Shown piece after piece: positions 8,901 through 59,477 of a DNA stretch of 64,000 nucleotides; position 1 is the first letter of the stretch, and every line of letters begins with the position of its first letter. This DNA is from Eledone cirrhosa (lineage: Eukaryota). The notes beneath the pieces were generated by a model that was not told the DNA's origin, searched no databases, and saw only the letters and a program-made list of their open reading frames with translations. The stretch is taken from NCBI GenBank assembly GCA_964016885.1, contig OZ024743.1, forward strand, positions 252,588,001 through 252,652,000. Direction: 5' to 3'. Made by a program: the position numbers and the translations under genes.

Positions 8901-11703
8901 CCGGATTAGCGAACTAGTTAAGCAGGCGTTGACGGGGTCATCGTCAACAACAAGTGGTGGTTTGCTCTGAAAAGAGCAATTAGAATAGAGTCCATTAGGT
9001 TTCGTAAGGCTTTAGCAATAGAGAAAAATAGAGCAGAGGGAGAATTAGTTAGAAAATTAGACGAGGCGCTTAGCAAAGGCATCGCGACCGACGTACTTGC
9101 GGCGAAATTGGCCCTTGACCAATTCTTCAGTGCAAAGCACGAAGGCTGCGTTGTCAGAGCTAGGGTGCGTTCTCTCAGACACGAGGGGACGAAAGCCGTT
9201 CAATGGGCCCGAGTGGCGGAGGCACCTCGTGGAAACAAATCCACGATCCGGTCTTTGGTGGACCACGACGGGTGCATGCTACTCGATCCCGGCCAAATGT
9301 GTGAAGCTTTTTAGCAACACTTCGCACAGCTGTTCGGGGGCAGCGGCGGGTCGGATCGAGGGATAGACTTTAGTGTCTACCTCGACGTTCTGCCGCGGCT
9401 CTCGGCCACTTAGGCGGACTGTTGCGAAAAGCCGATAAAAACTGCTGAAGTACGGGAGGCAATGACTGGCTGCACAAGGGGTAAATCGCCTGGTTTGGAT
9501 GGTCTGTCAAATGAACTTTACGTACAGATGCCAGATTTGTTCGTAGGCCTCTTGGCGGACGTCTACTTCAACTGGCAACAGATCGGGAGAATTCCTAGCT
9601 CTGTGAGCCGAGGAGCTGTGGCGCTGCTGAGAAAGGATCCGAACAAGGGGGATAACATAGATAATTTCAGGCCCATATCTCTGCTAAACACAGAGTTCAA
9701 GATTTTGGCCAAGGTGCTAGCAAAGAGGTTAGCGCTTGTCGTTGGTGGTCTGGTGGGAGAGCCGCAGACGTGCGCCATTCCCGACAGATCCATCCACGAC
9801 AACCTCCACCTCATGCGATACATCGTAGAGAGGGTAGCTAGGGAACCTGGCACGGGTGGGTCCTTGATCAATTTAGATCAGTAGAAAGATTTCGACAGGG
9901 TCGACCATCGTTACCTAGCGGCAGTCCTGAGGGCGGCTGGCTTTGGGCCCGTCTTCAGAGGCTGGATCGCTGCCATGCACAGCGATATCTGCTCTGTGGT
10001 GAGAGTGAACGGTCACCTTTCGGAACCGTTCAACATCATGCGCTGGGTCCGCCAAGGATGTCCCCTCTCGTCCCTCTTGTACGGATTGACTCTCGAGCCA
10101 TTACTGCACAAACTGGAGACGTTTAGGGGGGTCCCACGCGAACTAGGATGCAGAAGATCCGTGTCAGCATTTGCGGACGATGTCACCGTAATGGTGTCGA
10201 ACGCCAAAAACATCGAGGCGATCGGCACTACACTAAGAGAATACGAAGCAGTGACAGGAGCAATGATCAACCAGGAAAAGCCAGTGGGCCTGCAGCTCGG
10301 CACCTGGTTCGGTCCGGACCTCGAGACGGACAAAATCTGGGATGAGGTGACGAGCAGGGTGGCTTCTCTCACCTAGAAATGGGCGGAGAGGAAGCTATCC
10401 CTGAAAGGTCGAGCGGAGGTGGCTAACGCGTACATCGCGTCAGTCATCTACTACCACGTGACCGTCGTACCTTGTCCTAAGCCCCGCCTGACTGCGCTGG
10501 AGCGTTTGCTCTTTCGCTTTTTGTGGAAGGGACGCGCTCCGATGGTCAGGCGGTCCATCTGCTGTCAACACCCGCTACGTGGAGGGCTGGGCATGCCGTG
10601 GCTGATGATGCGCAGACACGCGCTCAGGCTACGACATCACCTCTTCCTCGACGGTGATCATGTGTGGTCGCCGTTTGCTAGACACGTCTTTCCCCAGCTC
10701 GTCTCCTTGACGGAGCTGCAGTCCTGGGTCAAGCGAAGACCGAGAGGGAGCGCTTGGAGACTGGAATGTCTTCAGGCGCTCACAGCCCTCGACCAATCGG
10801 GCAATGTGATCGGTGGAAACTCCACCTTGGCGTTCTATAGAGGATTAGTGGAGGGGAAGAGCGACGACGTACTTGGAGAAACTCTAGGCGTCGACGAAAA
10901 TCAACTAGCCAATCTCTTACGGAAGGACTTTCGGGCCGGGGTCTATGGACAACTTCCAGAAATCCCTGGCCTGGCAGTGCTACCGAGAAGCTTTGCCAGT
11001 TCGGGATAAACTCTACAGGCATGGAGGTGCCGTCAGCCGGGCATGTCCGAGATGCACGCAGGGCGACGAAACCGTCCTGCACGCACTCGTCCAGTGTCCG
11101 AGCATTGCTGACTTGTGGGTTTATGTCGAACACCTGCTGTCACGTCTAGGACGGATCCAGCTATCAGCTAAGTCCATCGTGAGGATTGCCCCGCCCTCTT
11201 CCTTTAGCCAGTAAGGGCAGGCAGTTTTTATCTGTCTGGTGGCTATGGCGAAAGAGATAGTATGGTGGACACGTTTGAAAGGCTGAAGACGAGCACTTAC
11301 CTCTTCGGTGATGCCCTGATTAACTTTTTCAAATTTCATTTGAAAAGGAAAATCAGGGTAGAGAGGGAAGTGCTCTCTTCCCAGCATTTTGTTGAAATAT
11401 GGGTGAGAGAAGCAAGTATGGCCCGAGTGAATGGGCCTACTCTGAGTATGTGTCTGTAAATTAAAGGTGGAAAACTGGGAGAGGGCACTTGCCCTGGTGG
11501 TCAGGGTCACTGTGGTCTTTTAATGGGCTTTCTCCACAAATGTCCCTCGGAAGTCTCCCCCCTATTGGGGAATCTTTCTTTGTTATTTTATTTCATCCTC
11601 TGTTTTTTTTACACGCATAAATGCCCATTTGTACCGTCCTGTATTGTCCTGTACTGTCCTTAATGTCTACTTTATGTAAATCCTTGTGGTTAATAAAGAA
11701 AAC
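5962..11703 (+). mobile_element. Near full-length Tx1/L1-clade LINE, copy 1 (ORF1 with CCHC knuckle; ORF2 APE-RT-CCHC), disrupted
   Basis: ORF1 pieces start at 6168. ORF2 starts at 8118 (GSINARGL, ISET, VYAP, VGDWN), then KSPGLDG, FRPISLLN, RQGCPLS, AFADD, and ends with CPRC..ETVLHALVQC. The 3' end is AATAAAGAAAAC+(ATT)n. It has multiple stops and frameshifts. Confidence 0.93.
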
Positions 11704-23044: not shown

Positions 23045-25555
23045 AATCGCATCTATTTGGACGAGACAGAGGCACAGTTCACCATAGCTAAAAATAAGAT
23101 TAGACAAATAGTAGACCGGTAAACTAAGAGACAAAGCAGACCAGAGGTCCAACAACTTGGGAGGAAACCTGTAGAAGGCATAGTTAGCCTCAAGCAACGC
23201 ACAAGGTATGGTGAGGTAGTATGTCTACCCACAGATCAGTCTGGTAGGATGTCAATAGACAGCATGCTGAACTACATCAAGGCTATGCAACCCCACATCA
23301 CCAACACAAGCGAAATTACACAGCAAATACATGAGGGGAGAGAGAAAATCCTCAACGCTCACATGATGATGTGGACCGACATCCTAAAGCCAAGCAGACG
23401 CACTGACATCAACTTCCACGCGTCTAACAATGACATACCACACTTGTATGGGCTCCGCAAAGACCATAAGACAGTCGACGACCCGACAACAGGACCACCA
23501 ACAAGACCTGTATGCGGAGCCAATATCGCTAGCAACTACAGGATCTCCTACTTCCTCTCAATGGTTATACGCCTCATAATCAAGATGTCCCCAGATGTAT
23601 GTGACAGTACAGAGGACCTCCTCAGCAGAATCAGTGAGTGCAACAAAAACAAAAACCTATCCAACTGCCTAATAGGCAGTATGGACGTGGTATCACTATA
23701 CGTATCCATTAACATTGATTTTGCTGTGGAAAAATGTGTGGAGATGATCAGTGAGAGTGAGGTTTAGTTCTGTGACGTCGACACAGATGAACTGGGCCTC
23801 CTACATAGACTTACCTATGACACTGACTACCTAGACAGCCATGACCTTAGACGTTTCTGCCCCAGTAGACCCATAAGAGGTAGACCATCTACCATAACCT
23901 CAATGGCAAAAAATACTCCTATGGGAAGTTGGATTGGGTGTACCAAAGCCATACAGACCCCCAAAACAATGATCAGGTAAGAAAAATGGTCGCACATGCA
24001 ATAGGGGCTAGTATTAAAACTACCCTAAAGGGCCACATATTCAAATTCAACGTGAAGATCTACACCCAAAATGAGGGAGCACACATTGGCGTCAGCATAG
24101 CTGGTGACGTTGCCAACCTTTTTATGGTATGCTGGGAAAGGAGACTCAAAGATCTCCTTGATGAGAGCTCCATAGACCTCATCATGTACTCTCGTTACGT
24201 AGACGACATCAATATAGTAATAAGGACATCCCCACAAGAGAGTACTAACAAGTAAGATTTAGAATGTAGCACAATGGAAAGCATCCAGCAGATAGCTAAT
24301 TCCATACACCAGAGTATAACTGTAACTATCGACTACCCTTCCAAACACCCTAACAATAGACTACCTGTATAAGACACGGAACTCTGGATTAACACTATAG
24401 ACAAGAGAGCCCAAATTTTCCACTCACACTACGCTAAACACATATCCTCCAAATACCTGATACTCAAAAACTCAGCAATGTCCAGTAGTGCTAAGTTTAA
24501 TATTCTGATCGTAGACTTGGTATGAGTGATGAAGAACGTGTCCCGCATGTGCGACCCAACAGAAATGAAAAGATACATCCAACACTTCATCAACCGCATG
24601 CAGTTCTCTGGCTACAGCCAAAGAGACAGAATCAGAGTATACGAAAGAGCCACGGAGAAGTATAAGACCCTCATAGAACTTGACATGAAAGGAATGTGCC
24701 CATTATACAGGAGCAAATCATAGAATAGCTTAGATAGGACTAAACATAAGATAGGGAAAGCCACCTCATGGTACAACAACCAGAGATACCAGAGTGTCAT
24801 GTTCGTGGACGCTACCCCTGGATGGAAATTAGCTAACCAGTGTAGAAAGGCTCTGAGAAAGACCTACTTAAAGATTAAGGTGGTAGAAAAGCCAGGAACC
24901 ACCATAAAATACCTGATCAGCAAAACCTACCCTTTTAAGAAAACCCACTGTACTAATAGGAAATGTATTGAATGTAATGTAAACCCCCGGATAAACTGTA
25001 AAACTAGAAACGTAGTCTATAGCATAAGAATGTACAGAGGGTACTTGCAGAAACATGACAATATACATAGGTGAGACAGCTCGTAGCATAGGTGAAAGGA
25101 TAGACCAACACTGGGCGGAACTAAAAGGACGACAAAACGGTCCAGTAATATACGAACACGCCAGACAACAACACGACGGTAGCATAGACAACATAGAAAT
25201 TAAAATAACATCTAAACATAGAAATGACCCAGCAGATAGGCAAATCAGAGAGGCCAGTGAAATAGAACTTAGAAGGCCAAAGCTAAATAGAAAAAATGAA
25301 TGGAATAACAACATCCAAACAAACAATACTGACATAGGAGAATACAATAACCAAAACACAGTCACCCAATCTCGAACACACATCAAACACTATACACACA
25401 CGCAAACGCATGCGCAGAGAAGAAGACAAAAATAAATAAATAAATAAATAAACAGATTAAATAAAGATGGCGGAGACATACAATACAACAGGAGGAAACA
25501 TAATAGCACCACTGACGATGTTGTAGATGTGCAACGAAAGAACTTTGTTAGACTA
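23045..25555 (+). mobile_element. Decayed Penelope-like retroelement (RT + C-terminal GIY-YIG; Naiad-like)
   Basis: Motifs LYGLRKDHK, RPVCGA, GSMDVVSLY, IG..IAGDVANLFM..W, YSRYVDD, FVDATPG..KVVEKPG, a Cys cluster, and VVYSI..YIGETARS..R..H..E..LN. Several stops and frameshifts. A hammerhead core lies just after the ORF. Confidence 0.9.
25504..25551 (+). ncRNA. Hammerhead ribozyme core at the 3' end of the Penelope-like element
   Basis: CTGACGA (25512-25518), stem II GTTGTA-GATG-TGCAAC, then GAAA (25536-25539). Stems I and III are degenerate. Confidence 0.6.
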
Positions 25556-25789
25556 TATATATGTGTTTGTGTCTATATTATATCTGTATTTTTGACAGTT
25601 GATCAGTCAATAGTAAACATTGAGGACCAAATAAATTAACTGATATAAAAGATACAGAAGCGAAAACCAACCAAACAGTGGATGTGTTCTGTTATTAATT
25701 CTGGCAATATCATTGCAACAATATGACCCTCCCCAAGTATAACAATATTTGTTTCGACACACAATTTCATATCAAAATCCTCACAAAAC

Positions 25790-26300: not shown

Positions 26301-26344
<44 letters not shown>

Positions 26345-26349
<5 letters not shown>

Positions 26350-26463
26350 AAAAAGAGATGAAATCGAAAATGCAACTGGAGTCTTATTTTTTTAAAAAAT
26401 ATATATATTTTAAAAAAAAATAAGACTCCAGTTGCATTTTCGATTTCATCTCTTTTTCTTTAT
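26345..26463. repeat. Near-perfect inverted repeat around a TA-rich centre
   Basis: AAAGAAAAAGAGATGAAATCGAAAATGCAACTGGAGTCTTATT is followed by its reverse complement. Confidence 0.9.
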
Positions 26464-26519
26464 ACTTTCACTCGTGTAGGACACCTCGGTTATTTTTCAT
26501 TTTGTAAAAAAAACCTCAC

Positions 26520-34677: not shown

Positions 34678-37600
34678 GATTTCTTTATTAAAACAAGGGT
34701 TTACATAAAGTAGACATTAAGGACAGTGCAGGACAATACAGGACGGTACAAATGGGCATTTCTGCGTGTAAAAAACAAAAACAGAGGATGTAACAAAAAA
34801 ATAACAATGAAAAATTCCCCAATAGGGGGAGACTTCGGAGGGACATTTGTGGAGAAAGCCCAGTAAAAGGCCACAGTGATCCTGACCACCAAGGCAAGTG
34901 CCCTCTCCCAGTTTTCCACCTTTAATTTACAGATACGTACTCAGAGTAGGCCCATTCACTCGGGCCATTCTTGCTTCTCTCACCCATTTTTCAACAAAAT
35001 GCTGGGAAGAGAGCACTTCCCACTCTACCCTGATTTTCCTTTTCAAATGAAATTTGAAAAAGTTAATCAGGGCATCACAGAAGAGGTAAGTGCTCGTCTT
35101 CAGCCCTTTCAAACGTGTCCACCATACTATCGCTTTCGCCATGGCCACCAGACAGATAAAAACTGCCTGCCCTTCCCGGCTAAAGGAAGAGGGCGGGGCA
35201 AGCCTCAAGATGGACTCAGATGATAGCCGGATCCGTCCTACACGCGACAGCAGGTGTTTGACATAGACCCACAAGTCAGAAATTTTCGGACACTGGACGA
35301 GTGCGTGCAGGACGGTTTCGTCGCCCTGCGCACATCTCGGACATGCCCGGCTGACGGCACCTCCATGCCTGTAGAGTTTATCCCGAACTGGCAAGGCTCA
35401 TCTGTAGCACTGCCAGGCCAGAGATTTCTGGAAGTTGTCCATAGGTCTCGGCCCGCAAGTTCTTCCGAAGAGATTGGCTAGTTGATTTTCGTCGACGCCT
35501 AGAGTTTCACCAAGTACGTCGTCACTCTTCCCCTCCACTAATACTCTATAGAACGCCGAGGTCGAGTTTCCACCGATCACATTGCCCGAGTGGTCGAGGG
35601 CTGTGAGCGCCTGAAGACATTCCAGTCTCCAGGCGCTCCTTCTCGGTCTTCGCTTGACCCAGGACTGCAGCTCCGTCAAGGAAACGAGCTGGGGAAATAC
35701 GTGTCTAGCAAACGGCGACCACAACTGATTACCGTCGAGGAAGAGGTGGAGATATCGTAGCCTGAGCGCGTGTCTGCGCATCATCAGCCACGGTAAGCCC
35801 AGCCCTCCACGTAGCGGGTGTTGACAACAGATGGACCGCCTGACCATCGGAGCACGTCCCTTCCACAAAAAGCGAAAGAGCAAACGCTCCAGCGCGGACA
35901 AGCGGGGCTTAGGACAAGGTACGACGCTCAGGCGGTAGCAGATGACAGACGCGATGTACGCGTTAGCCACCTTCGCTCGACCTTTCAGGGATAGCTTCCT
36001 CTCCGCCCATTTCTGGGTGAGAGAGCCACTCCTCTCGTCACCTCGTCCCAGTTTTTGTCCGTCTGGAGGTCCGGACCGAAACAGACCCCTAGCAATTTAA
36101 CCGGTCCGCCCGTCCAGCGCCCGACGACGCTGTTGGACGGCATGGACCTGCCTCTCCAGGTGCCGAGCTGCAGGCCCACTGACTTTTCCTGGTTGATCAT
36201 TACTCCTGTCACCGCTTCGTATTTTCTTAGTGTAGTGCCGATCGCCTCGATGTATTTGTCGTTCGACACCACTACGGTGACATCATCCGCATATGCTGAC
36301 ACGGATCTTCCGCATCCTAGTTCGCGCGGAACGCCCCTCAACGTCTCCAGTTTGTGCAGTAATGGCTCGAGAGTCAATACGTACAAGAGGGACGAGAGGG
36401 GACATCCTTGGCGGACCGAGCGCATGATGTTGAACGGTTCCGAAAGGTGACCGTTCACTCTCACCACAGAGCAGATGTCGCTGTGCTTGGCAGCGATCCA
36501 GCCTCTTGAAGACGGGCCCAAAGGCATCCGCCCTCAGGACTGCCGCTAGGTAACGATGGTCGACCCTATCGAAAGCTTTCGACTGATCTAAATTGATCAA
36601 GGACCCACCCGTGCCAGGTTCCCTAGCTACCCTCTCTACGATGTATTGCATGAGGTGGAGGTTGTCGCGGATGGATCTGTCGGGTATGGCACGCGTTTGC
36701 GGATCTCCCACCATACCACCAACGACAAGCGCCAACCTCTTTGCTAGCACCTTGGCCAAAATCTTGAACTCTGTGTTTAGCAGAGTTATGGGCCTGAAAT
36801 TATCTATGTTAATTATCCTTGTTCGGATCCTTTCTCAGCAGCGCCACAGCTCCTTGGCTCACAGAGCTTGGAATTCTCCCGATCTGTTGCCAGTTGCAGT
36901 AGACGTCCGCCAAGAGGCCTACGAACAAATCTGGCATCTGTACGTAAAGTTCATATGACAGACCATCCAAACCAGGCGATTTACCCCTTGTGCAGCCAGT
37001 CATTGCCTCCCGTACTTCAGCGGCTGTTATCGGCTTTTCGCAACACTCCGCCTCAGTGGCCGAGAGCCGCGGTAGTCCGTAGAGGTAGACACTAAAGTCC
37101 ATCCCTCGACCCGGCGCACCGCTGCCCCCGAACAGCTGAGCGAAGTGTCGCCGAAAAGCTTCACACATTTGCCCGGGATCGAGTAGCATGCGCCCGTCGT
37201 GGTCCACCAAAGACCGGATGGTGGCTTTGTTGCCACGACGCGCCTCCGCCACTCGGGCCCATTGAACGGCTTTCGTCCCCTCGTGTCTGAGAGCACGCAC
37301 CCTAGCTCTGACAACGCAGCCTTCGTGCTTTGCATTGAAGAATTGGTCAAGCGCCAATTTCGCCGCAAGCACGTCGGTCACGATGCCTTTGCTAAGTGCC
37401 TCGTCTAATTTTCTAACTAGTTCTCCCTCTGCTCTATTTTTCTCTATTGCTAAAGCCTAACGAAACCTAATGGATTCTATTCTAATCGCTCTTTTCAGAG
37501 CAAACCACCAATTGTTGTTGACGATGGCCCGCGTCCACGCCCGCTTAACTAGTTCGCTAATCCGGTCTCTGTAGGCTTTGCGCGCTGGTATGGACGCGTT

Positions 37601-40472
37601 TAGCTTCCAGTAGCCGAATCCTCGTCTATGAAGCCTATCTAAGTCAAGCACAAAGATCACGAATTTGTGGTCCGTGTAGCTGACTATCTTGAATTGTGGA
37701 CAGCCTATGCTAGACCTATCTATTTCCCTACAAAATACTCTATCTAGATATGATCTGGATGACCCTATACGATTTGTCCAAGTCCACATTGGCACATTCG
37801 GGAAATCCAATCGGTACCTGTCAGACAGTTCAAAACGCCTGAGCAGGTTGGTGAGGCTCTTGCACCCTCCACCCCTATCCGCTAATCCCACACAGTCCCA
37901 GCGTGCATCTAAGATCCCGTTCCAGTCGCCCACTAACACTAAAGAGCGGCACGTTCCAAGAAAGGTCTCCAGACGCCGGAAGAAATCAGGCCGCCCTGCT
38001 CCTGTAGGGGCATAGACGGCCACTAGCCTGAAAGCTTTCCCGTCTCCGATGGTCACGTCCAGCACCACCAACTTACCCTCTGGGTCCAGGAAGATGGCCC
38101 GTATGGCGAGATCCAAACCTTTCCGAAAAAGCACAGCAACTCCTTCCCCCGATCCCGGACGGCTGGGAGATGCGTACACATCGTAACCGCCGAAGATCGG
38201 TGCGAAGGCCCGTGCTTCGGAGATTCTGGTCTCGCTGATGGCCACTACATCTATGTTTAGTGACCTGAAGTCGTTGAGCAGGTGAGGTGGCCCTGCTTCC
38301 ATGACGACCTCTAGACACGCGCATCTAGGCTGCCTATTCTGAGTGAGGTCATGTTGAACTGGAGTGGAAAAGATGGGAAAGATAACTTACCTTACTTCTC
38401 GTAGAGGAAGGATGGTTTGTCCATCCTTTTCACTGCTTGTGGCCTCCTCCGGAAGGATGTCCTTATAAATCCTTCTGGAGAGTGTTTGTCGGAAGTCTCC
38501 GATGTCTTTGGGGAATTTTTGTTTTAGTGTCGTGTACGTTTTCTGCGTGATGCGAGTGATTTGTATGTGTGGAGGTGGTGTGAACTTCTGGGTTGTTGTG
38601 TAGTCTTTTTCTGTGATGCTGGTGTTGTGTTGCATGTGGTGTAATAATTGGTTGTTGTTCAAATTTAATGCTGTATAGTGTGTATCGTTTTGGTTGTTTT
38701 GTTTTGTTTGCGTTTGTTGTGGGTTTGTTTCTGTTTCGCTTTTTGGTGACTTTTGTGGTGTGGTGATGGTGGTGTTGGGGTTAATGATGGTGATGGTGTT
38801 GGTGTTTGTGGTGATACGGTTGGTGATGCTGGTGTGGATGGTGGCATATCTGTCCTAACGTTTTTGTTTGATAGTTTATTTGTTTCCCTCTGTATTTTGT
38901 TTTTGGAGGGGGAATGAAGAGAATTTTTTTCTTTTTTGGTTTCTTTTTTTCTTTTTTCCTGATACCGTTTCCCACTCCTCGTTGTCACAATCTGTCTCCA
39001 GTTGCGATAAGCCGGGGAGTGGAAAATCCTCCACAGGCGTTGGTTTTGGTTGTGGCGTGGTGGATGGTGTAGGCTCTGGTGCTACTTCTGGCCCGTTGGG
39101 TGGTGAGGGTTGGTTTTGCTACTGTTGCTGGGGTCGTTGCTGTTACAGTTGCTTCTGTTGTTGCTGCTACAGTTGTTGCTGCCATCTCTGCTGCTGGTGG
39201 TGTTGATGGTTGAGTCACTGGGGTGGGTAAGAGAGGTGGCCTCAACCTTTTAGCCTGAGGGCAGAAAGCCCTTAGGTGGGTTTCTTCACCACAAACGACA
39301 CACCTAGGCATTCTGCCCTTGACGATTACGGTGAGGTGGCTGCCGTCAGTGAGGTCTATTACCTCTGCGATCTCCTCAATTCTTTTATGGTCCGCTTGGA
39401 TCAGGAGCTCCATCCCAGATCCGCACCAGTACTCCTGCTTTTCTTTCGCTATTCGATTATCTTGGTGTTGGCCTCGATGCCGGCGAGGACGGCAGCCATT
39501 AGCAGGAATTTCGATGGCCGGTGGAACGTGGGTCACCCTGATCTTCACGAGTCTCTGGCCACAATAGCTTGGGACGAGTGTGAATTCGTCACTTCTTAAT
39601 GAGGCCATAGAGTGTTCTCTGGCCTCCTGTGGTGTTTCAAATAACACGTCCACGGTTCCATATTTCTGCCCACGTCTGATGTGGGTTTTTATTGCCCACA
39701 TATGTCCCAAAGCTTTTTGGATTTGGGACTCGCCCGTTCTACTCGGCGCGATTTTATGTTAATCGTTCGATAAGACACGGTGCATAGACGCCAATGCTCC
39801 ATTATATTAGGGGGGGGGGGCTGACCCTGTAGTACCCATCTTTCTTTACCATTCTTTTGGCTTCTTCTAATTCCTCCTGAGTTACCTGGATCACTTCGCA
39901 CGTTTTTGCTACTCTCGCAAAAGACAGGGTAGTTTTCTTAATTTCATCGTTGCTGTTGTTGTTATCGTTATTTTTGTTATTGTTAATTTTAGTTTCAGTT
40001 GTGGTGGTGGTGGCGTCAGTGGTGTTCGGTGTGGAAGAGTTCATTTCGATATCATGAGATAATTTATTTTTTTCTGTTGTCGGTGTGGTGGCTGCTTTAT
40101 CACCTGCAGTCATTGGTAATGGCGGGAAATGACTGACTGCCTGAGACAAATTTAAAATAGTGCTACTGCTTATATTTTTAATGTTGGCAAACGTAGTAAT
40201 ATTTACAATGGTATCGGTGTGAGGTGTTAGTTTGTGAGGAAGGTGTGAGTCGTCCATGATTTTTCAAAGAAAAATTTTTATTTGATAATTATAAATGTTT
40301 AAATTTTTTGGGCTCAAGGCCCCAATCTTTTTGAGTTTCCTTTTCAGAAAACAATGTATGTGCACTTATATACAGTTAACAATAAAAATGTTCCATAAAT
40401 GCAATTTTAAACAACTGAAAATAACAAACCTTTGCGGAGCTGACGATAATACGATTTACTACGTAGGTCGCC
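34678..40472 (-). mobile_element. Near full-length Tx1/L1-clade LINE, copy 2, disrupted
   Basis: Same 5' start (GGCGACCTACGTAGTAAATCG) as copy 1. ORF1 starts at 40257 with CVVCGEETHLRAFC (CX2CX4HX4C). ORF2 spans about 38352-34927 with APE, RT (AYADD) and CCHC. The 5' end abuts (TAA)n at 40473-40502. Confidence 0.94.
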
Positions 40473-51325: not shown

Positions 51326-51594
51326 AATGATAATATTTTTATCTTTGCCACAAGGTTATCAAAAATAGAATATTACAAGACTGTAACACCACAAAATAAA
51401 CAAGGAACTGAGTTTGAAAACACACATACACACACACACACACACACACATATAAGTGCATGGGAGTGTGTATTTTTGTATGTGCATACACACATATATA
51501 TATATAAATACTTATATATGTGCGTGCGTGGGTAGAAATATATGTATGCATGTGTATTACCATATATTTATATATAAAGATATATATATATACA

Positions 51595-51666
<72 letters not shown>

Positions 51667-52215
51667 TGTATATATATATATCTTTATATATAAATATATA
51701 GTAATACACATGCATACATATATTTCTACCCACACATGTAGATACATATATACATAAATACATATATATATATATACACAAGTATACACAATAGTAACAA
51801 TAACAACAATATCCATATTAATGATTGGGATGATGATGATGATGCTGCTTCTGACATTTTTTTAGTTTGTATTCATTGTAACTACAGCAATATAAACAAA
51901 AATAATGAAGACACCAACGACTATAACTTCAATAAAAACAACAACAATATAGTATACTTGTTGTTTTCTTTAAGGAACAAGAGTTACAGGAGAAAATTCT
52001 AGAATTCAGCATGTACCACACCAACTGATACAACATTGCTTAAAGCTCATAGAAAAGCTTACACTTCAATTACAATCAATAATATATATATATAAACATA
52101 TATATAAACATATATATATATATATATATAAACATATATATATATACATATATAAATTATATATATATATATATATATAAACATATATATATATACATAT
52201 ATAAATTATATAAAT

Positions 52216-52290
<75 letters not shown>

Positions 52291-52932
52291 ATATATATAT
52301 ATGCATATACATATATACATATGCATATGTATATATATATATATGCATATACAATATATTAACAAATGGAAACTATATTTATTAAACCATATTTATTTCC
52401 TTATACATATTTCAAGGGCCACCAAGGCAAACTATGGTGCGCTTTCATCATATAAAATATAATATAGGTTAGTTTTATAAATAAATATTGACATACCCTG
52501 AAAAAATGCAACCATTCTGGTTGGAATCTGGATATTTACTCCAATAATTTGTTGAGTGCTTTATATCAGTTATAAAAATATTTTGCTTGTTGTATCCCAA
52601 CAAATTAAATATAACCTCTACATATATGCATATATATATATTTATATATATATATATTTATCTGTATATATATATATATATTTATGTATATATATATATG
52701 GAACTCTTAGTACAGCTGATACTTAAATATAAGTATGTATACATACATATATGTATACAGATGTACAGTACTATGTATATTCATACATACAGGCACACAT
52801 ATATATATGTATGTATGGGTTTACCGAACATTTATTATGATGCTTGGTTTGTTTTTAAAAAAACAGCCTGAATTATTAGCCATACAGTGTTCGGCAACCA
52901 TCGTTGCCATTTTGTACAACACTGACAAAGGA

Positions 52933-52975
52933 ACGATGAACTAGTTTCTAGCTCATTAGCTGTCATCAGCACCGT
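52933..52975 (-). ncRNA. Type I hammerhead ribozyme (element A, left arm)
   Basis: Minus strand: ACGGTG-CTGATGA-C-AGCT-AATG-AGCT-A-GAA-ACTAGT-T|CATCGT. Confidence 0.8.
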
Positions 52976-53103
52976 ATACCTTCCTGTCAGTTTATTGCAC
53001 GTTTGAAAGTATATACTTTCCTTATGCATATTAATGGCTGAGCAGCCTAATTTGCATATCGAGTGAGTTAGTCGGCTGTTCAATCAACTGACAGGAAGGT
53101 TAT

Positions 53104-53146
53104 ATGGTGCTGATGACAGCTAATAAGCTAGAAACTAGTCCATCGT
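53104..53146 (+). ncRNA. Type I hammerhead ribozyme (element A, right arm)
   Basis: ATGGTG-CTGATGA-C-AGCT-AATA-AGCT-A-GAA-ACTAGT-C|CATCGT. Stem III is palindromic, and the GUC cleavage triplet ends at 53140. Confidence 0.82.
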
Positions 53147-53353
53147 TCCTTTGTCAGTGTTGAACAAAATGGCAACGATGGTTGCCGAACACTGTACGGC
53201 TAATAATTTGGGCTGTTTGTTTACAAACAAACCGAGCATTATAATAAATGTTCGGTAAACCCATACGTACATATATATATGTGTGCATGTATGTATGTAT
53301 ATACATACTACTGTACGTCTGTATACATGTATGTATGTACGTATACATAGTTA

Positions 53354-53407
<54 letters not shown>

Positions 53408-53565
53408 CATATATATATATATACATATATACATAAAATGTAAATCTGAGTTTTTCAAATATTAATAATAATATTCGATTCATTTGCAATGATCCAAACT
53501 GCCTCATAAGCCATGTGAGTAGAACAACCTTGTCATTCTTGCTTTTGTGTTGGCATATAAACAGA

Positions 53566-53612
53566 ATGGCAGACACTAATGTTTCTGGGTGATTACCCTT
53601 CATCTGTACTGT
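53566..53612 (-). ncRNA. Hammerhead ribozyme with mutated core (element B, left arm)
   Basis: Minus strand: ACAGTA-CAGATGA-A-GGGT-AATC-ACCC-A-GAA-ACA-TTAG-TGT-C|TGCCAT. U4 is changed to A and stem I is weakened. Confidence 0.65.
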
Positions 53613-53866
53613 ATACTGCTTAACTGTCAGCAAGTCAGAGCTAGTGAAAATATATGATATTTTCTGGAATATACTGTGACTGATAGGCCTGATCAGCATA
53701 TCACTCAGATCTGCATATTAGCACACCCACTCATCAGTCAGATTTCCATATCAGGAGAGATAGGCCGGTCAGTTTTATGTATATGGGCGATTAATGGTCA
53801 GGTTTGCCATAGTCAATTAACTAACAAATAGTTTTATCACTCTGACAGTTGGCAGGTAAGCAGTAT

Positions 53867-53913
53867 ACGGTACTGATGAAGGGTAATAACCCAGAAACAT
53901 CAGTGTCTGCCGT
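53867..53913 (+). ncRNA. Type I hammerhead ribozyme (element B, right arm)
   Basis: ACGGTA-CTGATGA-A-GGGT-AATA-ACCC-A-GAA-ACA-TCAG-TGT-C|TGCCGT. All three stems pair, and the GUC triplet ends at 53907. Confidence 0.85.
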
Positions 53914-54138
53914 TCTGTTTCAATGCCAACACAAGAGCAAGAATGATGAGGTTGTTCTACTCCCATGGCTTAAGAAGCTGTTTGCATCATTGCAAACAAA
54001 TAGAATATTATTATTAATATTCGAAAAACTCAGATTTACATTTCTTGTATTCAGTCATGTAGAGCGATAAAACTATTTGTTAGTTTTTATATATATACAC
54101 ACACACACACATATATATATGTATGTACACACACACAA

Positions 54139-55174: not shown

Positions 55175-56365
55175 ATCATCATCATTTTACATCTGCTTTT
55201 CCCTGCTTGCAAGGGTGGGATGGGTCCTATTCAGCACAGCATCTCTCTACTTGTCACGGTCCTTCGTCATCGCCTCCGTGTGTTTCAGCGATCTGAGGTC
55301 TGCTCTCAACACTTCCGCCCATGTTTGTCGTGGTCTTCCGCTACTGCATCTTTCTTCTACTGGGATTTCCTGGCAACTTTTCACCCAGCGGTCATCCTCC
55401 ATGTGCATCAAATGTCCATACTCTCTCAGTCTTCTCTCTTGCACACCACAACTTATCCCTCTTATACCCAGTTTCCCTCTCAACTCATCCATGCTTGGTC
55501 ATTCACGCACATTGATATTGCACATCCAATGTAACATGCTTGCTTCATTTCTCTCCAGCCGTTGCATATCCTCTGCAGTTGCTGCCCATATCTCACTACC
55601 ATTCAGCATCATACATCTCACACAGGCATCATATAGCTGACTTTCATATGCAGGGAGAAACCCTTCTTTGTCAACAGAGGAAGCAGCTCCCTAAACTTCT
55701 TCAACCTGACCTTATTCTAGATACTATGGCCTCGGAACACCCCTTCCTATGCTAATATGATCACCTAGGTACTAGAAGCTATCAACCACTTCTATAGAAC
55801 CCACCTGCATTGGGAAAATGTGTCTATCACTGCGATTAATACTGCCAACTTTCCCTGTACATCTGCTACATACATAGTTTTCCCTACCCGTTAGTTTGCC
55901 TGCTATCCCACTACATCTCTTCTGTACCCAAGATCTGCATTGCGTACATTTTATGGAATTTATGCCAGTTCCTTTCCTACATATCGAACATGGCCATTTC
56001 CCTGATGGAATCAGAGTACTGTCCTCTCTTCTACTTATCAACACTTTTGTCTTAGCTATGTTCACTCTTAGTCCTCTTGATTCCAGCTGCTGTTTCCATA
56101 GCCAGAAATTATTCTCTTCCTCCACTACTGATTCTGCTATAAGAACAAGATCATCAGCATAGAGCAGTTACCATGGGCAGCCAGTCTTAAACTGATCTGT
56201 TATGGCTTGGAGGACTATAGTGAACAAGAACGGGCTGAGGACCGAACCCTGATGTACTCCTACTTGTATCTGGAATTCCTCACTAAACTCCATTCCTACT
56301 CTCACTTTACTGACAGTGCCTCTGTACATAGCTTACACTGTCCTTACAAGCCATTCCTCCACACC

Positions 56366-56450: not shown

Positions 56451-57838
56451 CATCATCATCATCATCATTTTACGTCCGCTTTTCCCTGCTTGCAAGAGTG
56501 GGACGGGTCTTATTCAGCATAGCATCTCTCCACTCGTCACGGTCCCTCGTCACGGTCCCTCGTCATCTCCACCATGAGCTTCAATGATCTGAGGATGTTC
56601 TCACCACCTCCGCCCATGTTTTTCGTGGTCTACCTCTACCACGTCTTCCTTCAACTGGCAATTCCTGGCACTTCTTCACCCATCGGTCATCCTCCATGCG
56701 CATCACATGTCCATACCACCTCAGTCTTCTCTCCCGTACACTACATTCTATCCCTCTCAGACACAGTTTCTCTCTCAACACATTTATGCTGGGTCGTTCA
56801 TGCACATTTACACTGCGCATCCAACGGAGCATGCTTGCCTCATTTCTCTCCAGCCGTCGCATATCCTCTGCAGTTACTGCCCATGTCTCACTACCATGCA
56901 GCATTGCGCTCCTCACACAGGCATCATAAAACCGGCCTTTCGTACACAGGGAGAAACCCTTCTTCGTCAACAGAGGAAGCAGCTCCCTAAACTTCTTCCA
57001 ACTCGTCCTTATTCTAGATACTATGGCCTCGGAACACCCTGCTCCCATGCTAATCTGATCTCCTAGGTACCGGAAGCTATCCACCACTTCTATAGCGCCC
57101 TCTTGCATTTGAAAAATGTGTCTATCAGTGCGACTTCTACTGTCTAATTTCCCTGTACATCTACTGCATACATATTTCTCCCTACCTGTTAGTTTGCCTG
57201 CTATCCCGCTACATCTCTTGTGTACCCAGGATCTGCATTGTGTGCATTTTATAGAATTTATGCCAGTTCCTTTTCTGCATATCGAACATGGCCATTTCCC
57301 TGACGGAATCAGAGTTTTGTTCTCTTTTCTACTCATCAACACTTTTGTCTTAGCTAGATTCACTCTCAGTCCTCTTGCTTCCAACTGCTGTTTCCATAGC
57401 CAGAATTTATTCTCTAGCTCCTCTACTGATTCTGCTATAAGAACCAGATCGTCAGCGTAGAGAAACTCCTCTGTTATGGCTTGGAGGACTATAATGAACA
57501 AGAGCGGGCTGAGGACTGAACCCTGATGTACTCCTACTTGTATCTGGAATTCCTCACTAAACTCCATTCCTACCCTGACTTTACTGTACAAAGTTTGCAC
57601 TGTCCTCACAAGCCATTCCCCAACACCTAGCTTCCTTAGGGACCACCAGATGACAGATCGGGGTACCCTATCAAAGGCCTTCTCTAGGTCAACAAAGGCT
57701 AAGTATAGTGGCTTATTTTTCTCTAAGAACCTCTCTTGCAATTGTCTCACCAAGAAGAGGGCATCTGTTGTACTCTTCCCAGGCACAAAACCAAACTGCA
57801 TCTCATCTAGTTTGACCCTTTCTCTAATTAGTTGTGCT
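56451..57838 (-). mobile_element. 5'-truncated RTE-clade LINE fragment (406-aa open RT piece)
   Basis: QFGF, FVDLEKAFDRV, GVHQGSVLSP, LYADD, the PHD-type finger, LRWYGHV and a (GAT)n tail. Confidence 0.9.
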
Positions 57839-58178: not shown

Positions 58179-59477
58179 CTGGGGCATAAAAACTGTTACA
58201 AAATAAAATGCAAATAGTTCTTGAAAAAACATTTATTTCAAGATCTGACTTCAACAAATAATAAGTAATATACTATTAAACAACTGCCCAAAATTTTATT
58301 CGAAATGCTTTCCTCTAGCTCTCACTACTGCTTGAAGTCTTCTAGGAAAGTCTTTGATGGCTGCACGAACAGTTTCCATGGGTATTTTCTCCCATACTTT
58401 ATTCAGTTTTGATTTTAGAGTTTCAATATTTTGGCTAGGAGTAGAGCAGGCTTCACTCTCAAGAATTGACCATAAAGAAAAATCGAGAGAGTTGAGATCT
58501 GGTGATGTGGGAGACCACTCTTCCTTACTGATCCATGCAGGACAATGGTCTCTACACCACTGTTGTGTTACGCAGTCAGTGTGGCTCGTCGCTCCATCTT
58601 GTTGGAGAGTCCAAATATCATCGCCATAAACAGATGTGCACCATGGCATCAGTGCTCCTTCTAAAATATCCTTTATGTAAAGTTCTTTGTTAATTTTAAC
58701 TCCTTGAGGCACAACAATCAGAGGAGACTTCCCTCTTTCAGAAATGGCTGCCCAAACCATCACGAATGCTGGTTTCTGTGTTCTGAACACTTTTCCTACA
58801 CTTGAAGGAATTGATGTGAGACTTTTTGCAAGTAGTCGATCATTTTGATGATTGTGAGACTGCTGCACAGTGAATAAATTCTCATCTGTAAAGATGATGT
58901 TTTGCAGCGTGCCATCCTTGATACGGTTCAATAACAGTTTACTTCTGGAGAGCCTCTTTTCAATTGTGGCTGCAGAAAGAAGCTGCCTCTTTTGGAACTT
59001 ATAAGGTGACATCCCCAGATCATCTCGACATATCCTCTGCATAGTTCTCAGCGATGTTTCTGCTTCTTCTGCCATTTTTCTCATGGACCTTCTTGGATTA
59101 CGCCTTATTTTTTCCTTCACACTTTTAACGAGTTTTGGTGTTCTTGAGGTGCGAGGGCATCCGGATTGAGGTCTGTCTTTGGTCGAGGAAGTTTCCTTAA
59201 ATCGATCGATTATCCTTTTGATCAACATTTTATTGATCTTAAGAATTTTCCCCAGTTTAAATATCATGGGTGGAGTCAGGCTCTTTTTATGCTTCTCTAT
59301 TATGAACTTTCTTTTCAATTCTATGGACATTACAAATAGTTAATGGAATAATGTTCTGAAAAATAGTTAATATGGTTATAGTGCATGGATTTGATACAAA
59401 TATATTAGTTATATTAGCAACATAATGTACTTTTAAATTGGTTTAAAACTTTGTAACAGGAATTATGCCACACCCTT
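58175..59477 (-). mobile_element. Tc1/mariner-superfamily DNA transposon, DD37D (maT) family, about 1.3 kb
   Basis: Imperfect 27-bp TIRs (CAGACTGGGGCATAAAAACTGTTACAA vs AAGGGTGTGGCATAATTCCTGTTACAA) with TA-repeat flanks. Confidence 0.9.
58296..59330 (-). CDS. DD37D transposase, 344 aa, uninterrupted
   Basis: N-terminal HTH region, FTDE, QQDGATSH and SPDLNSLD, with 37 residues counted between the second and third D. Confidence 0.93.
   Translation of the reverse strand: MSIELKRKFIIEKHKKSLTPPMIFKLGKILKINKMLIKRIIDRFKETSSTKDRPQSGCPRTSRTPKLVKSVKEKIRRNPRRSMRKMAEEAETSLRTMQRICRDDLGMSPYKFQKRQLLSAATIEKRLSRSKLLLNRIKDGTLQNIIFTDENLFTVQQSHNHQNDRLLAKSLTSIPSSVGKVFRTQKPAFVMVWAAISERGKSPLIVVPQGVKINKELYIKDILEGALMPWCTSVYGDDIWTLQQDGATSHTDCVTQQWCRDHCPAWISKEEWSPTSPDLNSLDFSLWSILESEACSTPSQNIETLKSKLNKVWEKIPMETVRAAIKDFPRRLQAVVRARGKHFE

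What the first reader, a model, noticed from the sequence alone, without database searches (positions are those of the whole stretch)
52735..54085. Two adjacent palindromic elements, each with a divergent (back-to-back) pair of hammerhead ribozymes
Seen: elements A (52735-53348) and B (53436-54085) each consist of inverted arms around a unique spacer. Each arm has a type I hammerhead fold reading outward (52933-52975 -, 53104-53146 +, 53566-53612 -, 53867-53913 +). A and B differ in stems II and III and in the rest of the arm, yet keep pairing and geometry. They share the leader CTGACAG..AAG..TATA(C/T)(G/A)GT-N-CTGATGA, an AAT(A/G/C) stem II loop and an unpaired base on each side of stem II (C.A in A, A.A in B). 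Known: minimal hammerheads with palindromic stem III occur in Penelope-like pLTRs and animal retrozymes, where they are usually in tandem direct orientation and may cleave as dimers. Inference: the same outward-facing architecture in two diverged families suggests a non-autonomous, bidirectionally transcribed ribozyme mobile element using (TA)n sites rather than a chance inversion.
Basis: partly seen in the sequence, partly recalled or inferred. Interest (0 to 1): 0.85.

Follow-up and report, generated by a model that had tools for sequence, protein, structure and literature searches.

The report
Hammerhead mini-retroelements with Penelope-type inverted insertions
Two neighbouring repeats in an animal genome each carry back-to-back copies of a predicted self-cutting hammerhead RNA, but the mirror layout is likely the known landing scar of Penelope-like jumping genes copying small gene-less repeats, so it is a new example of a known pattern rather than a new two-way ribozyme element.

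Summary
The two inverted-arm elements and four type I hammerhead folds are real. One fold (53566-53612, minus) has a mutated core. The 'unique spacers' are not unique. In B the spacer is the upstream body of the left-reading copy. Contigs and reads from four runs show B is an abundant repeat whose other copies join the left end of the spacer directly to the hammerhead arm. B's right arm runs on through a 42-nt one-sided tail whose last 25 nt repeat the spacer's start (24/25), implying an ORF-less head-to-tail unit of about 425 nt. Both spacers carry a short palindrome and an octamer 60-62 nt upstream of the left-reading ribozyme only. A long copy, a shorter inverted copy, a one-sided tail and (TA)n targets are the published insertion anatomy of Penelope-like elements (PLEs). 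Opposite-strand hammerhead pairs were already reported in schistosomes. Best reading: two families of non-autonomous PLE derivatives (animal retrozymes) whose mirror arm is made at insertion; not a fixed bidirectional element. What remains of interest: retrozyme-type units bearing the PLE insertion footprint, and a conserved octamer. No reads were laid on A. Cleavage and expression are untested.

The parts
52701..52726 (-). Element A one-sided 3' extension ('tail') beyond the end of arm homology, followed by TA-rich repeat
   Evidence: Arm ends printed and aligned; no counterpart at the right arm; no significant match within A
52727..52992 (-). A left arm: 3' part of the longer, left-reading copy, ending in about 110 nt of degenerate TA/CA-rich sequence
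   Evidence: 247 of 265 ungapped columns identical to the right arm
52933..52975 (-). Type I hammerhead A-minus: core 52969-52963, stem III ACUAGU (1 bp plus palindromic tetraloop), GUU triplet, predicted cut 52939/52938
   Evidence: Parsed; cleavage not tested
52993..53085 (-). A 'spacer', read as the upstream body of the left-reading copy: 16-nt palindrome at 53005-53020 and octamer at 53050-53057, 60 nt from the base of extended stem I
   Evidence: strand assignment inferred from the matching layout in B
53086..53355 (+). A right arm: shorter inverted copy starting 24-29 nt upstream of the hammerhead core
53104..53146 (+). Type I hammerhead A-plus: core 53110-53116, GUC triplet, predicted cut 53140/53141
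   Evidence: weak Rfam Hammerhead_HH9 match, 23.4 bits against gathering 52
53356..53435 (.). (TA)n-rich tract between A and B; likely shared target; no target-site duplication discernible
   Evidence: Sequence
53436..53640 (-). B left arm: 3' part of the longer, left-reading copy, ending at the first of two family 3' ends
   Evidence: loose ends before 53443 run into TA-rich flanks in 28 (X1) and 35 (X2) contigs
53566..53612 (-). Decayed hammerhead B-minus: core CAGAUGA (U4 changed), two stem I mismatches
   Evidence: most laid molecules carry the intact core letter at 53605 (X1 depth 2840 of 2936; X7 8294 of 8618 reads)
53641..53843 (-). B 'spacer' = upstream body of the left-reading copy: near-palindrome at 53646-53664 and decayed octamer at 53692-53699, 62 nt from the base of extended stem I
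   Evidence: coverage in all runs; majority letters at 53694 and 53695 give the octamer; loose ends before 53840 match this stretch's left end on the minus strand
53840..54043 (+). B right arm: shorter inverted copy starting 33-37 nt upstream of the core, with about 4-9 nt of microhomology at the junction
   Evidence: 181 of 204 ungapped columns identical to the left arm
53867..53913 (+). Type I hammerhead B-plus: intact core 53873-53879, GUC triplet, predicted cut 53907/53908
   Evidence: fold z = -3.88, 0 of 200 shuffles as good, for 53858-53921 (the MFE fold is not the hammerhead fold)
54044..54085 (+). B one-sided 42-nt tail; its last 25 nt (54061-54085) repeat the start of the left-reading copy (53843-53819), implying a head-to-tail unit of about 425 nt
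   Evidence: 24 of 25 identical; tail conserved in the family (loose end behind 54036 in 1388 X7 reads; contig pieces 53933-54084 and 53861-54082)

Best explanation
A and B are insertions of two diverged, gene-less hammerhead repeat families (B an abundant family with an inferred head-to-tail unit of about 425 nt) that are likely copied in trans by Penelope-like element (PLE) enzymes, and the back-to-back ribozyme pair is likely a by-product of each insertion rather than the functional unit. Shown for B: multi-copy family; spacer joined to the arm in direct order in other copies; conserved tail; two 3' ends about 40 nt apart; majority letters that keep the core, the octamer and a self-complementary stem III. 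Inferred mechanism: (1) a promoter in the 'spacer' (octamer about 60 nt upstream, palindrome 15-35 nt upstream) starts transcription near the base of the ribozyme's extended stem I, and the RNA reads through head-to-tail units. (2) Two same-strand hammerheads can pair their palindromic stems III and cut out monomers, as in animal retrozymes. (3) A PLE endonuclease cuts (TA)n DNA and the PLE reverse transcriptase copies an uncleaved RNA from both broken ends, starting at one of the two 3' sites. One copy runs back into the spacer; the other stops at the RNA's 5' end just past the ribozyme. The two copies are joined head to head by microhomology. In B the two copies tile one dimeric RNA with a 25-nt overlap, as in twin priming (recalled from LINE-1); self-priming fold-back is the alternative for this step. 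A is assigned by analogy. These copies are probably decaying.
For: (B only): 3780, 4030 and 2378 contigs and 25,871 RAD reads were laid. Loose letters before 53840 (33 contigs in X2, 43 in X3; agreement 0.66-0.68) match the spacer's left end on the minus strand. 6 of 15 shown joints (of 253) link 53634-53641 to 53840-53849 on opposite strands, and all four runs show such joints. None of 24 listed pieces (of 10,712) crosses 53843/53844; six start at 53840-53847 with 63-135 unlaid letters before them. Most depth at 53839 carries the tail-type letter in contigs that end 5 letters on (X1 128 of 160; X2 146 of 194). Five other junctions in RAD reads (53481/53730, 53590/53723, 53701/53923, 53754/54011, 53842/53999; 69-115 reads, one start each) read as head-to-head joins with different breakpoints (my mapping); tail overlap 24 of 25; octamer 60 and 62 nt from the left-reading ribozyme, but 31 and about 149 nt from the right-reading one. 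A read-through transcript would bury 41 of 43 (A) and 44 of 47 (B) ribozyme bases in the opposite arm. Locus L002 is an unrelated contig with the same ribozyme variant and a decayed inverted partner 183 nt away; there the short copy's far end repeats the spacer over 187 nt at 76%. Literature: inverted 5'-truncated copy, 30-40-bp one-sided tail, hammerhead near the 3' end and (TA)n bias (PMC8557442); head-to-head most frequent, palindromes at pLTR 5' ends, microhomology (PMC3846280); tail equals the distance between two RT start sites, and uncleaved RNA is the template in vitro (PMC11167929); retrozymes related to pLTRs (10.64898/2026.07.22.740005).
Against: No reads were laid on A, and A's tail does not match its spacer. 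No listed read or contig spans arm, tail and spacer interior in one piece, so the 425-nt unit is inferred from a 25-nt overlap, and no tandem dimer with two same-strand ribozymes was seen. Depth is low over the whole right half of B's spacer (X1 about 210-290 at 53767-53802, against 160 at 53838), so the dip at the junction is not itself decisive. One X3 contig covers 53838-9 with 82 letters to its end and might bridge it. Only 24 pieces and 15 joints were shown; single-start joints may be PCR chimeras. No autonomous partner was found: the decayed PLE-like element at 23.1-25.6 kb has no BLAST match to A or B, and six short motifs had no hit in the PMC8557442 supplement. No target-site duplication is visible. 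The ribozymes are canonical-type, not the minimal type typical of metazoan PLEs. The putative circular monomer folds only slightly better than shuffles (z -1.8; 3 of 60 as good).
Confidence: 0.75

Rival explanations
1. One reading: a fixed palindromic, bidirectionally transcribed element in which two outward-facing hammerheads and a central promoter move as one unit.
For: The same geometry occurs in two diverged families here and in L002, with short arms starting 24-37 nt upstream of the core in all three. Octamers act in either orientation (recalled). PMC3846280 raises bidirectional pLTR promoters. A was not tested with reads.
Against: For B, other copies join spacer to arm in direct order, no listed piece bridges this junction, and other junctions differ. 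There are one-sided tails and one-sided motif spacing. Opposite-strand ribozymes cannot dimerise in cis. The three examples were picked for having two ribozymes, which biases toward this geometry.
Confidence: 0.07
2. A and B are merely the 5'-truncated 3' ends (3' UTR plus pLTR) of two longer autonomous PLEs, with no short non-autonomous unit; the 25-nt overlap in B would then be an internal repeat.
For: Most PLE insertions are 5'-truncated. No tandem dimer was observed. A has no tail-spacer overlap. Depth falls in the right half of B's spacer.
Against: B's tail reaches the spacer start after 17 nt, at 24 of 25 identity, and L002 shows the same closure over 187 nt. The longest Met-started ORFs are 64 and 88 aa in low-complexity sequence. 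The canonical-type ribozyme and 425-nt size fit retrozymes of 170-400 nt better than the minimal hammerheads of metazoan PLEs.
Confidence: 0.13
3. MITE or foldback DNA transposons (TA target) whose long terminal inverted repeats happen to contain captured hammerheads.
For: Long inverted arms in TA-rich DNA; a Tc1/mariner-like transposase ORF lies at 58296-59339 (recognised by recalled motifs).
Against: The ends are unequal (one-sided tails), the arms end in degenerate microsatellite, family copies lack the fixed inverted layout and have two staggered 3' ends, and A and B share no terminal motif.
Confidence: 0.03
4. Assembly or amplification fold-back artefact.
For: Palindromes in TA-rich DNA are error-prone, and no independent record spans this locus.
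Against: The arms differ at 18 of 265 and 23 of 204 positions, including CpG-type decay, which fold-back reads would not give. L002 shows the same layout.
Confidence: 0.02

Closest known systems
Insertion architecture of endonuclease-bearing Penelope-like elements (Penelope/Poseidon, Neptune, Hydra, Naiad; PMC8557442, PMC3846280, PMC11167929)
   Same: Long copy plus adjacent inverted shorter copy joined head to head; one-sided 26-42-nt tail; hammerhead in the terminal repeat; palindrome near the repeat's 5' end; microhomology junction; (TA)n targets.
   Different: No RT/GIY-YIG ORF; no autonomous partner identified; canonical-type rather than minimal hammerhead; no target-site duplication visible.
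Animal non-LTR retrozymes (PMC7229834; 10.64898/2026.07.22.740005)
   Same: Canonical type I hammerhead with 6-bp stem I, bulged extension, 4-bp stem II and short palindromic stem III; ORF-less low-GC unit (36%) of about 425 nt; high copy number. A resembles axolotl HHR_Amex1 (1 bp plus palindromic tetraloop). The mismatch at the base of stem II parallels the U.U of HHR_Amex2.
   Different: Here seen as dispersed inverted insertions rather than tandem arrays; C.A or A.A at the base of stem II; circular RNA not tested. The word 'inverted' does not occur in the main text of PMC7229834.
Opposite-strand hammerhead pairs 100-700 bp apart in Schistosoma mansoni (PMC4209133)
   Same: Two hammerheads close together on opposite strands, discussed among PLE-related motifs.
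   Different: Those are minimal hammerheads with long stem II; the passage gives no orientation or spacer analysis.
Newt satellite 2 (hammerhead repeat with an internal snRNA-type promoter; Coats 1994, seen only as a citation in PMC2220036)
   Same: Hammerhead repeat with a candidate internal promoter upstream of the ribozyme; that the newt promoter contains an octamer is recalled.
   Different: Promoter activity untested here; no proximal sequence element was looked for; dispersed and inverted rather than satellite.

Membership tests
Type I hammerhead ribozyme | Conserved core CUGANGA...GAAA...UH | tested here: met
   3 of 4 copies; the fourth is a local mutation, since most laid molecules keep the core letter at 53605
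Type I hammerhead ribozyme | Stems I, II and III form, with covariation | tested here: met
   Stem I 6 of 6 pairs in three copies and 4 of 6 in B-minus; different stem II and III sequences in A, B and L002. Majority letters give U-A where B-plus has G-C in stem I (linkage on one molecule not shown). No formal covariation statistic was run.
Type I hammerhead ribozyme | Canonical 10.1-11.1 pair (usually G-C) at the base of stem II | tested here: not met
   C.A in A and A.A in B; a U.U at this place is tolerated in axolotl HHR_Amex2
Type I hammerhead ribozyme | Rfam hammerhead model at gathering score | tested here: not met
   best is HH9 at 23.4 bits against 52
Type I hammerhead ribozyme | Self-cleavage | not testable with these tools
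   Needs an in vitro assay; 8 of 9 predicted Xenopus dimers showed no cleavage in the 2026 preprint
PLE-type insertion | Inverted, shorter copy adjacent to the 5' end (head to head) | tested here: met
   A and B; strand of the spacer shown for B, inferred for A
PLE-type insertion | One-sided 30-40-bp tail, i.e. two 3' ends | tested here: met
   42 nt in B with both ends recurrent in the family; 26 nt in A
PLE-type insertion | Microsatellite (TA)n target, or variable target-site duplication | tested here: met
   TA-rich flanks on all four ends and in family loose ends; no duplication discernible
Autonomous PLE | ORF with telomerase-like RT and GIY-YIG endonuclease | tested here: not met
   No such ORF in A or B
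Non-autonomous PLE derivative | Sequence similarity to the pLTR of an autonomous PLE | tested here: inconclusive
   No match to the decayed element at 21.8-26.0 kb or, by six short motifs, to one paper's supplement; genome and repeat libraries not available
Animal non-LTR retrozyme | Short ORF-less unit in head-to-tail repeats | tested here: inconclusive
   425-nt unit inferred for B from a 24 of 25 overlap and overlapping contigs; no dimer seen; not shown for A
Animal non-LTR retrozyme | High genomic copy number | tested here: met
   B: thousands of variant contigs in three runs of about 1.4-1.5 Gb, under two species labels; not a copy count; A not tested
Animal non-LTR retrozyme | Expressed as linear and circular monomers | not testable with these tools
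   No RNA run could be laid
MITE / foldback DNA transposon | Fixed symmetric terminal inverted repeats with a defined duplication in all copies | tested here: not met
   Asymmetric ends; B copies lack the fixed layout

The most novel reading that the evidence does not exclude
These families give direct footprint evidence that animal retrozymes are moved by PLE enzymes from uncleaved, promoter-started linear dimers rather than from circles. Two primings on one dimeric RNA turn a direct hammerhead pair into a back-to-back pair (25-nt overlap in B, 187-nt in L002). The short arm records the RNA's 5' end at the base of the ribozyme, and a conserved octamer 60-62 nt upstream marks a promoter like that of newt satellite 2 in an invertebrate retrozyme with an unusual C.A/A.A stem II base.
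Probability: 0.35. Interest if true: 0.55.

Novelty: new member of a known kind. Interest (0 to 1): 0.33.

Why it matters
As a pattern it is known: inverted hammerhead pairs are a PLE insertion scar. Its value is as a test system. How animal retrozymes move is open; the link to PLEs rests on shared ribozymes, co-occurrence and pLTR trees, and the 2026 preprint notes that non-vertebrates and the life cycle were not examined. An abundant gene-less family that carries the PLE tail, inversion and (TA)n signature lets a copy census decide between a circular and a linear template, and between twin priming and fold-back. The ribozyme variant also escapes Rfam at gathering score, so such families are probably under-counted.

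Tried and rejected
Whole genome: none held, so no copy census. Rfam: no hit at gathering score in the window; 54 sub-threshold hits over 48-60 kb, almost all microRNA models on TA repeats, and no hammerhead. Sequencing runs: no RNA holder listed; this says nothing on expression. Reads were laid on B only, on 4 of 9 listed runs. Metagenome pattern scan: 6 hits, of which 1 (L002) has 6 of 6 stem I pairs and a hammerhead layout; the other 5 were set aside as chance. No further copies of A or B in the window. MFE folding of the four extended ribozymes mostly does not give the hammerhead fold (z -2.22, -3.54, -2.46, -0.24). Circular fold of the putative B monomer was inconclusive (z -1.8). A TATA-box reading of the spacer palindromes was considered and left weak, because the short arms start only about 10-21 nt from them. 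The depth dip at B's junction was rejected as evidence on its own. One arm-to-spacer joint (53758/53943, 21-nt side) was rejected as too short. The decayed PLE-like element at 23.1-25.6 kb was rejected as the partner (no BLAST match); Pfam gave only a weak RVT_1 hit in 1 of 4 fragments (E 0.0023), and the Atlas gave DUF8422 clusters at 0.96-0.97. Literature searches for octopus or cephalopod hammerheads and retrozymes returned only PMC8557442 as relevant; its supplement lists a (TA)n-targeting octopus Hydra element with a different hammerhead. A search that included 'twin priming' listed no PLE paper using that term. Lunse 2017 and Coats 1994 are not held; the PMC7229834 supplement and bioRxiv supplements could not be read and may list related families. 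Earlier scan notes had no look-alike sequence.

Full report
Context. The window is repeat-dense animal DNA: LINE, Tc1-like and PLE-like ORF remnants among long (TA)n and (CA)n tracts (element classes recognised from recalled motifs). No tool named the host. The repeat landscape looks octopus-like from recall only. No whole genome was held.

Observation. The two strongest inverted repeats in 50-57 kb are the arms of A and B. They align at 247 of 265 and 181 of 204 ungapped columns, so they are old enough to have diverged and are not fold-back artefacts. Each arm parses as a type I hammerhead reading outward, at the coordinates given, with a 6-bp stem I continued past a bulge, a 4-bp stem II with an AAU(N) loop, a C.A (A) or A.A (B) opposition at its base, and a self-complementary stem III. 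A post hoc strict descriptor found 3 hits in the window and none in 200 shuffles. Rfam finds none at gathering score; A-plus matches Hammerhead_HH9 weakly (23.4 bits against 52) and B-plus matches no hammerhead model.

Asymmetry in the sequence. B's right arm continues 42 nt past the end of the left arm, and the last 25 nt of this tail are an inverted copy of the spacer's right end (24 of 25; no other match of 19 or more in the window). Read on the minus strand, the spacer is therefore what follows the tail and precedes the ribozyme: a head-to-tail unit of about 425 nt (36% GC) with no credible ORF. A has a 26-nt extension on the left only. Both spacers hold a 16-19-nt palindrome and, further upstream, an octamer site 60 nt (A) and 62 nt (B) from the base of the left-reading ribozyme's extended stem I; the distances to the right-reading ribozyme (31 and about 149 nt) do not agree.

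Family evidence for B. Nine runs were listed and four were laid on 53436-54085 at 80% likeness (three samples at most, two species labels). Laid: 3780, 4030 and 2378 contigs and 25,871 RAD reads. The spacer is covered in every run. Letters preceding the right arm in other copies match the spacer's left end on the minus strand (33 and 43 contigs, agreement 0.66-0.68), and 6 of the 15 shown joints (of 253) are this switch. None of the 24 listed pieces (of 10,712) crosses the window's inversion point. The tail is conserved (1388 reads behind 54036), and a second end near 53443 runs into varied TA-rich flanks. Majority letters keep the core at 53605, give ATTTGCAT at 53692-53699 (for example X3 depth 1556 and 1638 of 1698), give a stem III that pairs fully as a dimer (53901), and give U-A where B-plus has G-C in stem I. 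Five single-start junctions in RAD reads fall at other places and read as head-to-head joins; one has a copy starting at 53842, the same place as here.

An outside example. A pattern scan of metagenome contigs gave six loci; only L002 parses as a hammerhead. It has the same C.A variant, a decayed inverted partner 183 nt away, a short copy starting about 30 nt upstream of the core, and a far end that repeats the spacer over 187 nt at 76%. The layout is thus general and again closes head to tail (unit about 765 nt).

Mechanism. Stem III of A (1 bp plus a palindromic tetraloop) implies cleavage by two ribozymes on one strand (PMC4209133 parts 1-2 of 4; PMC7229834 passages and parts 3-4 of 6). A back-to-back pair cannot do this in cis, and a transcript through the whole element is predicted to bury 41 of 43 and 44 of 47 ribozyme bases in the antisense arm. 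The working unit is therefore likely the direct repeat. PLE insertions typically show an inverted 5'-truncated copy, a one-sided 30-40-bp tail and (TA)n bias (PMC8557442 passages); head-to-head is the most frequent form, with palindromes at pLTR 5' ends and microhomology joins (PMC3846280 passages). The tail equals the distance between two RT start sites, and uncleaved RNA is the in vitro template (PMC11167929 parts 1-2 of 4). I infer that a PLE enzyme cut (TA)n DNA and copied an uncleaved, promoter-started RNA from both ends. In B the two copies tile one dimeric RNA with a 25-nt overlap, resembling twin priming (recalled from LINE-1); PMC3846280 prefers self-priming. That the short arms of A, B and L002 start 24-37 nt upstream of the core fits an RNA 5' end there, since reverse transcriptase would meet stem I from its other side, but these cases were selected for having two ribozymes.

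Comparison and novelty. Opposite-strand hammerheads 100-700 bp apart were reported in 2014. Animal retrozymes are proposed PLE derivatives on the basis of co-occurrence and pLTR trees in vertebrates (10.64898/2026.07.22.740005, parts 1-3 of 5). A mismatch at the base of stem II is known in axolotl. An internal snRNA-type promoter is cited for newt satellite 2 (PMC2220036 passage; the original was not held, and its octamer is recalled). Searches for octopus or cephalopod hammerheads gave only PMC8557442, whose supplement lists a (TA)n-targeting octopus Hydra element with a different ribozyme and none of six short A/B motifs (line breaks could hide matches). Subscription papers, repeat databases and unread supplements may already hold these families. 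PMC10886601 (passages) was irrelevant. Earlier AI notes on other genomes reach similar readings; they are unchecked and not counted as support.

Verdict. Real hammerhead-like motifs, real inverted elements, known architecture. New member of a known kind; interest 0.33. The remaining value is a retrozyme-type family carrying the PLE footprint and a conserved octamer, which makes its route of mobilisation testable.

Noticed in passing
window 23100-25600 (+): Decayed Penelope-like element: RT fragments (weak RVT_1; DUF8422 clusters), a GIY-YIG-like fragment at 25028-25435 recognised by recalled motifs, and a minimal-type hammerhead core at 25512-25539 (6-bp stem II with an unpaired 5' base) followed by TA-rich sequence. 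No match to A or B.
   Followed up: partly
window 51481-51780: Palindrome with 150-nt arms, 89% complementary, centred on a (TA)n run with no spacer; no hammerhead core. A similar one, with 61-nt arms at 97%, lies at 26343-26464.
   Followed up: no
L002 744-800: The hammerhead of L002 is followed directly by a near-perfect antisense copy of its own core region (57-nt palindrome, 91%), which would mask the ribozyme.
   Followed up: no
window 53591 (minus-strand loop II of B): A one-base deletion in loop II is the majority form in the RAD run (7040 of 9133 reads) but rare in the contig runs: a subfamily with a 3-nt loop.
   Followed up: no
window 53690-53724: B's spacer appears to carry a local duplication of about 16 nt of the octamer region, with both octamer copies altered; RAD reads have loose ends here (5006 reads before 53700).
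   Followed up: partly
window about 7000-11600 (+) and 34800-39800 (-): Two closely related LINE copies (endonuclease plus RT, with an upstream ORF) in opposite orientation.
   Followed up: no
window 58296-59339 (-): Uninterrupted 347-codon Tc1/mariner-like transposase frame, recognised by recalled motifs.
   Followed up: no
window 55175-55702 and 56458-56998: Two direct copies about 1290 nt apart of the 3' end of an RTE-like LINE ending in (CAT)n on this strand.
   Followed up: no
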